The notes under the pieces are model-generated. The model was not told the origin of the DNA. It worked only from the letters and a program-made list of their open reading frames with translations, and made no database searches. 64,000 nt of DNA from Moniliella sp. 'wahieum'. Its lineage: Eukaryota. The translations under genes and the position numbers were made by a program. The stretch is taken from assembly GCA_003971905.1 (NCBI GenBank), contig RSEE01000066.1:62001-126000 (forward strand). The letters are read 5' to 3'. Shown here piece after piece: positions 53,904 through 55,936 of this stretch (the stretch's first letter is position 1; each line of letters starts with the position of its first letter).

Positions 53904-55936
53904 CTAGACGGCCATTCATCTCAATCTTGGGCCAGGTCTTGTAGTTTTCAACGATAAAGTCGTCCGTCTTGAACCCATCAATCGACTCGACCGCCCGGGC
54001 AAACTTGAGGGTTGGGAAGGGGTAGGGGTCGCGCTTGAGCTGCTCCTTGAGCGGCTCGACATGGTCCAGGTACACATGCGCATCGCCCAGGACGATCGTC
54101 AGCTCGCGCGCGCGCAGGCCGGTGACCTGGGCCAGCATGTGGGTCAGCAGCGCATACGAGGCAATGTTGAACGGCACCCCGAGCCCCAGATCGGCGGAGC
54201 GTTGGTACATTTGGCAGCTTAGCTCGCCCGTGCCCGGACCGTTGGGGTGCGAAACAAAGAACTGGGCCAGCACATGGCACGGAGGCAGCGCCATCTTGGC
54301 GTTCTGCGCCGGGTTCCACGCCGACAGAAGGATCCGCCGGTCGGTCGGGTTGGACTTGATCGTCTCCACCACCTGGGCCAACTGGTCCCCCCCTTGCCCG
54401 TGTAATCCGCATCGGCCGACGTGTAGGGCGCATCAAAGTGGCGCCATTGAAAGCCATAGACCGGACCCAAATCTCCTCGCGGTAGGGCAGTCCCCGCTTG
54501 CGCAAAAATTCTTCGCTGCCATTGCCATCCCAAATGTGCACCCGCGCTGGGCCAACTTGGTCGCATCCGTCGACCCTTCCACGAACCACAGCAGCTCCTC
54601 CAGCACGCCCCGGAAAAACACACGCTTCGTGGTCAGCAGCGGCAAGCTGCCGTGGGACAGATCAAACTTCATGGGCGTCGGCGCAAACAGGGCGAGCGTT
54701 CCATGGCCCGTCCGATCCGCCCGCTTTTCGCCGACATCCAAGACGGCTTGGACGAGGGCTTGGTACTGCCGCTCCCCCGGGTTGGGCACGTCGGGATTCG
54801 CGCCGAGCACACGGCCATTGAGGCAGTGCAGCACCGCATCGCGCAGCCCAGCCGTGCGCAACGTGCCGGCAATCAACGGCTTGGACAAACCAATGGGAGC
54901 ATTGCCCTTGGCCAGCTTGATTTGGTCCTTGTTCGGCTCGCCTGGCGTTTGGGCCATTCCATCTTGCGCACTAAACAGCGAACCAATCGTAGGTTCGTCG
55001 AAACATTTGTGCGCATACGACAGAATGGCGATCGCACCCGCATCCACAGCAAAACGTTGGCCGAGCCAAAGCGGGAGACCAAGCCAGCGCGCAATAAAGC
55101 ACCTGTAGATCACGCCCAATCAGCTTGCACGAAAACGACGAAAGAAAAGCACCGAGGCAGAGAACGTACCGGTTAAAGTGCCCATGAGCCACGATCAAAA
55201 TGTCGGCAACGCGATGGCCCTTCTTGTTAGCATCCAGCTGGACGCCATCATCTTGGATGTACCCATGAGCGGCGGCACGCTGCAACATACGAATCTGGTG
55301 AATGATGCTGTCGATCCGAGCTGTCACTGCCTCCACTTTCGCCGGGCAAGGAGGGGTCATCGGGGTCGTCCGGGGTGCCCTCGTGCCAGATGTCCCAGTT
55401 GGCATAGCCAGGCACCGCACGTGCCTCGGCCGGCGTCTTGCCCTCGAACAGACCATAGTCCCATTCCGACACTCTTGGCGCACCTCGGCCGGAGGAATCT
55501 TGTCGCGCGCCGATTGGGGCAGATGCTCCAAAAGCAGTTGCAGAGTGTGCTGCGAACGCCCTCGGGGCGAAACAAACACGTACCCAAGGTGGTGGGGGGT
55601 GAGAAGAGCAGAGACATTGTCCTCCGGCCGCGGATCGTCGCCGACCACGTACGGGCCGAGGTGCCGAACCAGTTCCTCGCCGTGGGGAGTCAGGCGCAAG
55701 TTGGTGCGACCAGTGTGCTGCCCCGATAGCGACCACGCCGTCTCACCGTGCCGAAGGAGAATGACGCGCGGCATGGGCGCGCCCGCGGGCAGCTTGCGGC
55801 ACGCCTCCGTGCCAATTTCCGGATGAGCGGCCAGCAGCTCCTCGGCCGTCGGTGCATGGCCATCTTTACGGAGAGGAATGAACTCCTGATCAGGAGGGTA
55901 GACGGGCGCCGATGCGCGCGAGTAATACGTAGCCAT
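53904..55936 (-). CDS. Fusion protein: N-terminal histidine phosphatase (Shb17/PGAM-like) plus C-terminal thymidylate synthase
   Basis: Phosphatase part: [30 protein letters not shown] and [13 protein letters not shown] (intron 55103-55169). TS part: [76 protein letters not shown], ending (K)MAV*. Confidence 0.9.

What the first reader, a model, noticed from the sequence alone, without database searches (positions are those of the whole stretch)
53904..55936. Shb17-like histidine phosphatase fused in-frame to thymidylate synthase
Seen: a complete histidine-phosphatase domain (RHGET...HTGRT, EWDYG, AHGH, SYAH..DEP) runs without a stop, inside ORF 54433-55119, through a linker of about 55 aa into a complete TS with intact catalytic motifs. 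Known: these motifs most resemble yeast Shb17 sedoheptulose-1,7-bisphosphatase (riboneogenesis), and the classic TS fusion partner is DHFR. Inference: the fusion may couple NADPH-independent ribose supply, or a nucleotide/sugar-phosphate clean-up activity, to dTMP synthesis. I recall similar architectures in smut-related fungi but know of no functional study; this recollection is unverified.
Basis: partly seen in the sequence, partly recalled or inferred. Interest (0 to 1): 0.8.

Follow-up and report, generated by a model that had tools for sequence, protein, structure and literature searches.

The report
Sugar phosphatase fused to thymidylate synthase
This fungal gene joins a Shb17-type sugar-phosphate phosphatase to the DNA-precursor enzyme thymidylate synthase in one protein, a fusion shared by smut fungi and Malassezia skin yeasts that sits unremarked in databases and has apparently never been studied.

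Summary
On the minus strand (about 55774 to 53904) one gene encodes a histidine phosphatase domain, a 66-residue linker and a complete thymidylate synthase (TS). The junction lies inside one open frame (54433-55119).

The assembly is not clean. The gene has one real intron (55169-55103) and six 1-2 nt frame breaks. Three close relatives (83-88% identical) are intact at all six sites. Another gene in the window shows the same kind of break. So these are most likely assembly errors, not decay.

The fusion is real and old:
- 35 of 97 long database hits carry PF00300 plus PF00303.
- All 15 named ones belong to Ustilaginomycotina genera, five checked in the taxonomy and ten placed from my own knowledge. 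A cluster look-up adds Ustilago maydis XP_011388701.1.
- Two metagenome contigs encode it as a single uninterrupted ORF.

The N-domain is the subphylum's orthologue of yeast Shb17, by sequence, predicted fold and tree. Its catalytic columns are kept. It also carries a clade-specific loop insert and has lost a cysteine that is near-invariant in stand-alone orthologues.

Functional coupling to dTMP synthesis remains untested. Eight accepted searches of open-access text, five of which paired TS with a phosphatase term or a taxon, found no paper on this fusion. Verdict: a genuine, conserved, uncharacterised bifunctional TS variant of moderate interest.

The parts
53904..55774 (-). Coding region of the fusion gene. 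Likely start is ATG 55774-55772 ([12 protein letters not shown]), stop is TAG 53906-53904. The conceptual product is about 603 aa once the intron is removed and the six frame breaks are read through.
   Evidence: The alignment to 35 fused homologues is colinear from MPRV to ..KIEM(K)MAV.
55775..55936 (-). In-frame upstream extension from ATG 55936 (54 codons, MATYYS..). Probably 5' leader rather than coding.
   Evidence: The named fused homologues fetched or shown in the alignment start within about 20 residues of the MPRV motif, and none carries a counterpart of the 54-residue MATYYS extension. The close relative P0118 starts at MPRV. A stop lies 3 codons upstream of ATG 55936. Codon-position GC does not decide it.
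54973..55774 (-). Shb17-type histidine phosphatase domain (His_Phos_1), split by the intron and by two frame breaks.
   Evidence: Pfam; PDB; conserved columns.
55103..55169 (-). Spliceosomal intron, 67 nt, GTACGT..CAG, inside the Arg codon of HFNR|CFIARW.
   Evidence: ORF calls P0099, P0101 and P0118 from other assemblies end at or read into the same position.
54433..55119 (-). The junction ORF: phosphatase C-end, linker and TS N-part in one frame.
54775..54972 (-). Inter-domain linker, 66 codons, against 13-28 residues in 22 full-length homologues.
   Evidence: for lengths. Coding-type GC at codon positions 1/2/3 of 0.63/0.49/0.72, and stops in both other frames.
54775..54909 (-). Lineage-specific conserved part of the linker ([29 protein letters not shown]).
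   Evidence: Shared almost residue for residue with P0419 and P0420, which come from other assemblies. Third-position GC is 0.83 over 54885-54778.
53907..54774 (-). Thymidylate synthase domain, ending ..KIEM(K)MAV at the protein's C-terminus.
   Evidence: Pfam; alignment.
55466..55466 (-). Frame break 1 (one base missing, ..ECR|EWDYG).
   Evidence: Relative P0118 reads ..VREWDYG.
55335..55336 (-). Frame break 2 (two bases missing or one extra, ..PGES|VEAVT).
   Evidence: P0118 reads PGESAEHMT.
54541..54541 (-). Frame break 3 (one base missing in a G run, ..AQRG|VHIWDG).
   Evidence: Relatives read RGVHIWDG.
54476..54476 (-). Frame break 4 (one base missing, ..LPYRE|GDLGP).
   Evidence: Relatives read LPYREGDLGP or LPYRAGDLGP.
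54388..54389 (-). Frame break 5 (one base missing in a G7 run, ..TGKG|x|DQL).
   Evidence: Relatives read G(Q/M)GVDQL.
53916..53916 (-). Frame break 6 (two bases missing or one extra, ..KIEM|x|MAV stop).
   Evidence: Relatives read KIEMKMAV.

Best explanation
This is the window organism's copy of a conserved bifunctional gene of Ustilaginomycotina. It encodes an N-terminal Shb17-type histidine phosphatase, which is the subphylum's orthologue of the fungal sedoheptulose-1,7-bisphosphatase, joined through a flexible linker to a complete, C-terminally free thymidylate synthase.

Shown here:
- the continuous reading frame across the junction;
- the same architecture in many other genomes;
- a single origin of the fused N-domains within the fungal Shb17-type family;
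- intact catalytic columns in both halves;
- intact frames in close relatives at every break site. That makes the six frame breaks most likely deletion-type assembly errors.

Inferred:
- The N-half still works as a phospho-histidine sugar-bisphosphate phosphatase. The His of RHG would be the nucleophile, with the Arg, Glu and second His columns completing the site.
- The C-half makes dTMP through the Cys of PPCH, as a TS dimer.
- The two sites act independently.
- What the fusion achieves is obligatory 1:1 co-expression and tethering of a dispensable ribose-supply enzyme to an essential S-phase enzyme, not substrate channelling. The two reactions share no metabolite.

My odds: architecture real 0.95; frame breaks are errors 0.85; N-half still a sugar-bisphosphatase 0.6; co-expression is the selective reason 0.4.
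For: Fusion in other genomes:
- the junction ORF hit 97 proteins of 400-2000 aa with E <= 0.001, among 1834 candidates. Of these, 35 carry PF00303 plus PF00300 and cover 81-96% of the junction ORF (one covers 40%). The 15 that are named are all Ustilaginomycotina genera. I checked 5 in the taxonomy; the others I placed from my own knowledge.
- the clusters include U. maydis 521 (XP_011388701.1, 554 aa), U. hordei, Sporisorium, Moesziomyces, Malassezia furfur ('TMP1'), M. restricta and Tilletia.
- contigs L003 and L001 encode the whole protein as single ORFs of 541 and 554 aa.
- 5 of 80 TS loci have an N-domain, and in each it lies directly upstream of TS and contiguous with it.
- the linkers of 22 homologues are 13-28 aa, and 18 of 22 hold no Met. 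TS therefore cannot start on its own in those.

N-domain identity:
- Shb17 (YKR043C) is the best solved relative by sequence and by fold, for fused and stand-alone forms alike.
- the fused N-domains plus 4 truncated ORF calls form one clade (SH-aLRT 96). It is sister to the stand-alone proteins of other Basidiomycota, with Ascomycota as outgroup (100).
- the catalytic columns are kept. In A1, R13, H14, G15, S66, P67, R68, R70, E101, W102, H189, G190, H191 and the TS core are invariant in 21 of 21 sequences.

Frame breaks as errors:
- relatives that are 83-88% identical in TS, and 72% identical in the N-domain, are intact at all six break sites. They also share the long linker.
- a CoA-transferase gene (38948-40641) likewise switches between overlapping frames.
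Against: - There is no RNA or protein evidence for this organism.
- Six breaks in about 1.9 kb is dense. The nearby transaldolase ORF (1.3 kb) and the APH-domain ORF (2 kb) have none, so the error rate is uneven.
- The fused clade replaces two columns that are at least 97% conserved in 71 stand-alone orthologues: Ala after SPRxR becomes Ser, and Cys after W(R)DG becomes Thr or Ala. It also carries an 8-10 aa loop insert before GES. This could mean a change of substrate.
- Yeast Shb17 itself was not in my tree.
- Shb17 loss gives no growth phenotype in two yeasts (passages of PMC11817168), so selection for SBPase activity is not self-evident.
- The window's N-domain sits on a long branch (0.91 against a median of 0.22).
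Confidence: 0.7

Rival explanations
1. The phosphatase half has changed its job since the fusion. It might act on a nucleotide or another phospho-metabolite linked to dTMP synthesis, or regulate TS. The fusion would then be a true functional module rather than mere co-expression.
For: A clade-specific loop insert (TPDHPDKPxxLP) lies before the GES motif. The Cys that is 99% conserved in 71 stand-alone orthologues is lost, and there is an Ala-to-Ser change next to SPRxR. The whole-chain AlphaFold2 model of homologue P0012 has pTM 0.83 despite a low-confidence linker. That hints at a fixed mutual orientation, but no error map was available.
Against: All catalytic columns of the stand-alone family are retained. 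The gene tree follows the species tree with a moderate stem of 0.36. No complete stand-alone Shb17-type protein from Ustilaginomycotina appeared among the 120 best stand-alone hits, so the fused domain seems to be the only orthologue. Some Malassezia sequences keep the Cys. The loop is modelled with equal confidence with and without TS.
Confidence: 0.2
2. The window's copy is a decaying pseudogene. The six frame breaks are real, and a functional TS lies elsewhere in the genome.
For: There are six frame breaks in about 1.9 kb. The N-domain sits on a long branch. No whole genome or reads could be consulted.
Against: Once the breaks are read through, there is no in-frame stop and no loss of any catalytic motif. 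Codon-position GC bias is strong in every piece. All breaks are 1-2 nt deficits, four of the six within a G run or an AA pair. Another gene in the window shows the same defect. Close relatives are intact at the same sites.
Confidence: 0.07
3. There are two separate genes. The open frame through the linker is an accident of an error-prone assembly, or of gene models that run two neighbours together.
For: The assembly has indel errors. The Ceraceosorus bombacis annotation lists a 192-aa 'phosphoglycerate mutase-like' protein and a 239-aa 'thymidylate synthase' on a contig of the same length.
Against: Single ORFs span both domains in independent contigs, and the fusion occurs in 35 database proteins. 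In 18 of 22 linkers there is no Met. Both Ceraceosorus models are truncated inside their domains, which is typical of a mis-modelled intron-bearing gene. The window's linker has coding periodicity and is conserved in relatives.
Confidence: 0.02

Closest known systems
Database proteins annotated 'thymidylate synthase' in Ustilaginomycotina, e.g. Ustilago maydis 521 XP_011388701.1 / A0A0D1E1R6 (554 aa) and Malassezia furfur 'TMP1' WFD45892.1 (529 aa)
   Same: Same two-domain order, same domain boundaries, same clade-specific loop insert, and TS ending ..M(K/R)M(S/A)V.
   Different: The window protein is only 36-47% identical to these over the junction ORF. Its linker is 66 residues against 13-28, and includes a conserved 45-residue segment seen only in its three unnamed close relatives. 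It reads DRTGHGT and YQRSADLG where the named proteins in the alignment, and the 21 sequences of A1 at the Thr and Cys columns, read DRTGTGT and YQRSCDLG.
Saccharomyces cerevisiae Shb17 (YKR043C), sedoheptulose-1,7-bisphosphatase of riboneogenesis (PDB 3f3k, 3lg2, 3ll4, 3oi7)
   Same: Best solved relative of the N-domain by sequence and by fold. It shares the RHG, SPRxR, REW(D/E)YG..EG, GE(S/T) and HGH motifs and the C-terminal ..DAGG..L.YAHH...EP motif.
   Different: Shb17 stands alone (chains of 265-292 residues in the PDB entries). The fused domain has an extra 8-10 aa loop, lacks the conserved Cys and is tied to TS. Its substrate is untested.
Bifunctional DHFR-TS of protozoa and plants
   Same: TS is the C-terminal half of a two-enzyme polypeptide, joined by a variable linker. 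The remaining 62 of the 97 hits are mostly of this kind.
   Different: The partner there is dihydrofolate reductase (PF00186), which shares the folate cycle with TS. Here the partner is a phosphatase with no shared metabolite. No PF00186 match was found in the window gene.
Schizosaccharomyces Hal3 (PPCDC) proteins carrying a thymidylate synthase domain
   Same: A fungal precedent for TS fused to a metabolically unrelated enzyme. This rests on passages and a figure legend of review PMC9604783. The primary paper, Molero et al. 2013, is cited there and I did not read it.
   Different: Different partner (a coenzyme A pathway enzyme) and a different lineage (Taphrinomycotina). The fusion is independent.
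Mycobacterium tuberculosis Rv3214 (Gpm2), acid phosphatase (PDB 2a6p)
   Same: Second-best solved relative of the N-domain (E 1e-28; rank 6). NCBIfam's 'acid phosphatase' model NF009993 is the best bacterial model, but the match is below its cut-off.
   Different: Bacterial and stand-alone. It scores lower than Shb17.

Membership tests
Histidine phosphatase superfamily, branch 1 (Pfam PF00300) | Profile match above the curated cut-off | tested here: met
   48.7 bits against a cut-off of 21.7, on the partial ORF 54971-55945.
Histidine phosphatase superfamily, branch 1 (Pfam PF00300) | Catalytic RHG histidine, second histidine (HGH), and the Arg and Glu columns | tested here: met
   [14 protein letters not shown], (R)EWDYG and AHGH are present. 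The same columns are invariant in 21 of 21 fused homologues. The Arg of REWDYG lies at frame break 1.
Shb17 / YKR043C sedoheptulose-1,7-bisphosphatase family | Closer to Shb17 than to any other solved histidine phosphatase | tested here: met
   Shb17 entries at E 2e-37 and 9e-16. Ordinary phosphoglycerate mutases score only 1e-5 or worse.
Shb17 / YKR043C sedoheptulose-1,7-bisphosphatase family | Shb17-like fold | tested here: met
   the model of homologue P0012 residues 1-243 (pLDDT 92.4) has five Ykr043C chains as its top hits, with TM 0.75-0.79. This was tested on a homologue, not on the window's broken sequence.
Shb17 / YKR043C sedoheptulose-1,7-bisphosphatase family | Orthology: groups with the fungal stand-alone Shb17-type proteins | tested here: met
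   tree. The stand-alone representatives P0179 and P0121 themselves hit Shb17 best, at 1e-59 and 1e-40. Yeast Shb17 itself was not in the tree.
Shb17 / YKR043C sedoheptulose-1,7-bisphosphatase family | Columns at least 97% conserved in 71 stand-alone orthologues: Ala after SPRxR and Cys after W(R)DG | tested here: not met
   these are Ser and Thr in the window and in most fused proteins. They come from my own comparison and are not published defining residues.
Shb17 / YKR043C sedoheptulose-1,7-bisphosphatase family | Residues that bind the distal phosphate of sedoheptulose-1,7-bisphosphate | not tested
   The structural paper (Clasquin et al. 2011, PMC3163394) is not held, and I would not rely on recalled residue numbers.
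Shb17 / YKR043C sedoheptulose-1,7-bisphosphatase family | Sedoheptulose-1,7-bisphosphatase activity | not testable with these tools
   Needs an enzyme assay.
Thymidylate synthase ThyA (Pfam PF00303, EC 2.1.1.45) | Profile match above the cut-off over the whole domain | tested here: met
   profile positions 2-78, 87-104 and 106-263 of 266 are matched by three ORF pieces (78.9, 18.5 and 217.4 bits). Homologues pass NCBIfam TIGR03284.
Thymidylate synthase ThyA (Pfam PF00303, EC 2.1.1.45) | Catalytic Cys (PPCH) and the conserved dUMP/folate-site motifs, with a free C-terminus | tested here: met
   [44 protein letters not shown] and GDAHVY are present, and the stop follows ..MAV. Assigning these motifs to binding sites is from general knowledge of TS.
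DHFR-TS bifunctional enzymes | N-terminal dihydrofolate reductase domain (PF00186) | tested here: not met
   One search finds His_Phos_1, not PF00186, upstream of TS.
Phosphatase-TS fusion proteins of Ustilaginomycotina (database-only family) | Both domains in one polypeptide in this order, with the clade's loop insert TPD(H/D)P..LPGE | tested here: met

The most novel reading that the evidence does not exclude
The fusion is a working metabolic module. The phosphatase half, remodelled by its clade-specific loop, would be physically docked on the TS dimer. It would then tune dTMP synthesis to sugar-phosphate or ribose status, or remove a phosphorylated by-product of pyrimidine deoxynucleotide metabolism. 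That would be a link between the non-oxidative pentose phosphate route and DNA precursor synthesis that exists only in smuts and Malassezia.
Probability: 0.15. Interest if true: 0.75.

Novelty: new variant of a known kind. Interest (0 to 1): 0.5.

Why it matters
TS is an essential enzyme and a drug target. In a whole fungal subphylum, including crop smuts and the human skin yeast Malassezia, it apparently exists only as the C-terminal half of a protein whose other half is the riboneogenesis phosphatase.

The fusion is a natural 'Rosetta stone' link between NADPH-independent ribose supply and dTMP synthesis. It can be tested directly in Ustilago maydis, which is genetically tractable.

It also shows that database names hide the second activity. 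The proteins are labelled 'thymidylate synthase' and, once, 'phosphoglycerate mutase'. For this assembly, it flags pervasive indel errors.

Tried and rejected
- Whole genome of the window: none is held.
- Public sequencing runs for 53850-56000: none was listed and no RNA holder was listed. No reads could therefore be laid, and expression could not be examined.
- Complex prediction, TS domain against N-domain of homologue P0012: no verdict or no support. This counts neither way.
- Synteny: none of the window's other ORFs, including the transaldolase, matched the 10-kb flanks of the fused gene in loci L002, L003, L004 and L007, or the shorter flanks of L001. I dropped the idea of a conserved transaldolase neighbourhood.
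- In-frame retained intron in the long linker: rejected. There is no AG between 54880 and 54772. The only 3' sites downstream would remove the conserved E.QY motif. Third-position GC is 0.83 over 54885-54778, and the segment is conserved as protein in relatives.
- The 'stand-alone' Ustilaginomycotina hits P0098-P0101 are truncated ORF calls or gene models, not free phosphatases. P0392 is a fused gene read out of frame, and P0273 is a tandem TS, not a phosphatase fusion.
- Literature: eight accepted searches found nothing on this fusion. Five of them paired thymidylate synthase with a phosphatase term or a taxon; the others asked about Shb17 or YKR043C. Subscription journals are mostly not covered.
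- Clasquin et al. 2011 could not be read.
- Earlier scan notes: none for this genome. The word search returned only unrelated prokaryotic and phage TS-like cassettes.
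Full report
**What is in the window**

The finding lies on the minus strand. Stop-to-stop ORFs and the sequence show the gene in pieces in all three frames.
- ORF 54971-55945 holds the start of a histidine phosphatase (Pfam His_Phos_1, 48.7 bits).
- ORF 54433-55119 holds the end of that domain (..[10 protein letters not shown]), a linker and the start of thymidylate synthase (Thymidylat_synt, 78.9 bits).
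- ORFs 54219-54632 and 53815-54432 hold the rest of TS (18.5 and 217.4 bits).

Locating peptides in the three frames and translating the pieces gives the anatomy.
- The likely start is ATG 55774 ([12 protein letters not shown]).
- A 67-nt intron, GTACGT..CAG, lies at 55169-55103 inside HFNR|CFIARW.
- The stop TAG is at 53906-53904.
- There are six frame changes with no room for an intron, at 55466, 55335/6, 54541, 54476, 54388/9 and 53916. Each is a deficit of one or two bases. Four of the six lie within a G run or an AA pair.

Read through, the product is about 603 residues and is colinear with its homologues from MPRV to ..KIEM(K)MAV.

**Are the frame breaks real?**

No genome or reads were available, so the evidence is indirect. 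It all points one way.
- The read-through has no stop and keeps every catalytic motif. Every piece keeps coding-type GC at the three codon positions.
- The last protein search found three unnamed proteins from other assemblies that match the window's TS part at 283 of 341, 290 of 336 and 264 of 299 aligned residues. An N-domain ORF call (P0118) matches at 154 of 214. P0118 is recorded on a contig of the same length as one of the three.
- These relatives are intact at all six sites. They read ..VREWDYG, PGESAEHMT, RGVHIWDG, LPYR(E/A)GDLGP, G(Q/M)GVDQL and KIEMKMAV.
- By Pfam coordinates, a CoA-transferase gene at 38948-40641 also switches between overlapping frames without intron-sized gaps.

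On the other side, the transaldolase ORF and an APH-domain ORF are unbroken, so the errors are unevenly spread. I put assembly error at about 0.85 and pseudogene at about 0.07.

**Is the fusion real?**

- Searching the junction ORF against long proteins gave 97 hits with E <= 0.001 among 1834 candidates. Of these, 35 carry both PF00303 and PF00300. The remaining 62 are TS with DHFR, TS alone, or in one case PF06098 plus TS.
- The 15 named fused proteins come from Sporisorium, Kalmanozyma, Melanopsichium, Thecaphora, Testicularia, Violaceomyces, Pseudozyma flocculosa, Tilletia, Tilletiopsis, Exobasidium, Sympodiomycopsis, Parajaminaea and three Malassezia.
- I checked five of these genera in the taxonomy. 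The rest I place in Ustilaginomycotina from my own knowledge. Three of the subphylum's five classes are covered.
- Cluster members add Ustilago maydis 521 (XP_011388701.1, 554 aa), U. hordei, Moesziomyces, M. restricta and others. They are named 'thymidylate synthase', 'TMP1' or, once, 'phosphoglycerate mutase'.
- At the DNA level, metagenome contigs L001 and L003 encode the whole protein as single ORFs of 554 and 541 aa. In L002 the junction lies inside one ORF.
- Only 5 of the 80 TS loci kept from that scan have an N-domain. In each it is directly upstream of TS and contiguous with it.
- A profile search of 1.84 billion cluster representatives listed about five fused representatives among its best 150, so the family is narrow.
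- In 22 full-length homologues the linker is 13-28 residues, and 18 of 22 linkers have no methionine. Two of 24 sequences failed my motif match, one of them the window. TS therefore cannot be translated on its own in most species.

**What is the N-domain?**

- The N-domain of the S. reilianum protein hits yeast YKR043C (Shb17) structures at E 2e-37. M. tuberculosis Rv3214 follows at 1e-28, and ordinary phosphoglycerate mutases score only around 1e-5. The window's own partial ORF gives the same order.
- An AlphaFold2 model of homologue P0012 residues 1-243 (pLDDT 92.4) has five Ykr043C chains as its best fold matches. One is the sedoheptulose-1,7-bisphosphate complex 3oi7.
- Stand-alone proteins of 217-250 aa from other Basidiomycota are 39-48% identical over at least 93% of the domain, and ascomycete ones about 36-44%. 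UniRef names two of the ascomycete proteins sedoheptulose 1,7-bisphosphatase. Representatives of both groups also hit Shb17 best.
- I built a quick maximum-likelihood tree of 109 rows: 34 fused including the window, 4 short Ustilaginomycotina calls, and 71 stand-alone. That used 75 of the 120 proteins listed. P0026 and P0035 were dropped as too short.
- In that tree the fused domains and the 4 short calls form one clade (SH-aLRT 96). The clade is sister to the other Basidiomycota (86), with Ascomycota outside (100).
- The 4 short proteins are truncated ORF calls or gene models. Two end exactly at the HFNR intron.

So the domain is the subphylum's orthologue of the Shb17-type family, and the fusion arose once. 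Yeast Shb17 itself was not in the tree.

**Has the domain changed?**

- There are 45 alignment columns at least 93% conserved in the 71 stand-alone proteins. All the catalytic ones are kept in the fused set and in the window. Most apparent losses reflect truncated rows or Malassezia variants.
- Two replacements are systematic: Ala to Ser after SPRxR, and Cys to Thr or Ala after W(R)DG. A few Malassezia sequences keep the Cys.
- The fused clade carries an 8-10 residue insert (TPDHPDKPxxLP) before GES. Tremellomycetes have a shorter one.

These are the only hints of a changed specificity.

**The linker**

The window's linker is 66 residues. It has coding periodicity, with third-position GC of 0.83 over 54885-54778, and stops in the other two frames. 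Its 45-residue core ([25 protein letters not shown]) is conserved about as well as the domains in the unnamed relatives P0419 and P0420. It is therefore translated sequence specific to this lineage, not an intron. Its role is unknown.

**How it most likely works**

What is shown is the architecture, its single origin, and the conservation of both active sites over a deep divergence (Malassezia to Ustilago). In alignment A1 the invariant residues include R13, H14, G15, S66, P67, R68, R70, E101, W102, H189, G190, H191 and the TS core.

From the known chemistry of the two families I infer the following.
- The N-half is a phospho-histidine phosphatase acting on a sugar bisphosphate.
- The C-half is a dimeric TS.
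- In the fusions I know of, TS is the C-terminal half: here and, from my recall of the literature, in DHFR-TS. This fits the known need for its free C-terminal residue (general knowledge of TS).

According to reviews, Shb17 feeds the non-oxidative pentose phosphate pathway from aldolase-made sedoheptulose-1,7-bisphosphate, and its deletion alone gives no growth defect. I read passages of PMC8151747 and PMC11817168 for this.

The two reactions share no metabolite, so channelling is unlikely. The simplest benefit is obligatory co-expression of a ribose-supply enzyme with an S-phase enzyme. Alternatively, the fusion may be neutral and locked in by the essential TS.

A whole-chain model of P0012 has pTM 0.83 with a low-confidence linker at residues 246-259. 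That hints at a preferred mutual orientation, but no error map was available to confirm it.

**Comparison and novelty**

The closest things are the unnamed-function database orthologues themselves. The closest described systems are:
- Shb17, for the N-half;
- DHFR-TS;
- Schizosaccharomyces Hal3 proteins that carry a TS domain. This rests on passages and a figure legend of review PMC9604783. I did not read the primary paper.

Eight accepted searches of open-access text returned nothing on a phosphatase-TS fusion. Five of them paired TS with a phosphatase term or a taxon, and the others asked about Shb17 or YKR043C. Subscription literature is largely outside that library.

I therefore rate this a new variant of a known kind, the bifunctional TS. 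It is visible in databases but undescribed, and of moderate interest.

Noticed in passing
window 58656-59939 (+): A transaldolase ORF (PF00923, 205.5 bits, 428 aa with about 92 extra N-terminal residues) lies about 2.7 kb from the fusion gene's 5' end and is transcribed divergently. It is another non-oxidative pentose phosphate enzyme next to a Shb17-type gene. The neighbourhood is not shared by four other fused loci with 10-kb flanks.
   Followed up: partly
window 38948-40641 (-): A CoA-transferase gene (two PF01144 domains) is spread over five ORFs. Some overlap in different frames with consecutive profile positions and no intron-sized gaps. This is the same kind of indel defect as in the TS gene, and it suggests assembly-wide errors.
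   Followed up: partly
window 54775-54909 (-): A 45-residue linker segment ([25 protein letters not shown]) is conserved only in the window and its unnamed close relatives P0419 and P0420. It is absent from all named fused homologues. It has no Pfam match and its role is unknown.
   Followed up: partly
proteins P0100 and P0422 (Ceraceosorus bombacis; both recorded on a contig of 298,136 nt): The public annotation lists a 192-aa 'phosphoglycerate mutase-like protein' and a 239-aa 'thymidylate synthase'. Both are cut inside their domains. This is probably one fused, intron-bearing gene that was mis-modelled as two.
   Followed up: partly
proteins P0038, P0041-P0043, P0046, P0047: TS proteins of Mortierellaceae are 672-715 aa with only PF00303 recognised, so they have a long unexplained N-terminal part. 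A Rozella protein pairs PF06098 with TS.
   Followed up: no
protein P0273: A 533-aa protein made of a partial TS-like segment followed by a complete TS (tandem TS), from an unnamed source.
   Followed up: no
window 8311-9459 (-) and 60400-61641 (-): The ARMT1-like phosphatase gene and the copper amine oxidase gene are each split into two same-frame ORFs by a single stop. This is either a short stop-containing intron or a base error.
   Followed up: no
This is probably an intron at a different position from the window's.
   Followed up: no
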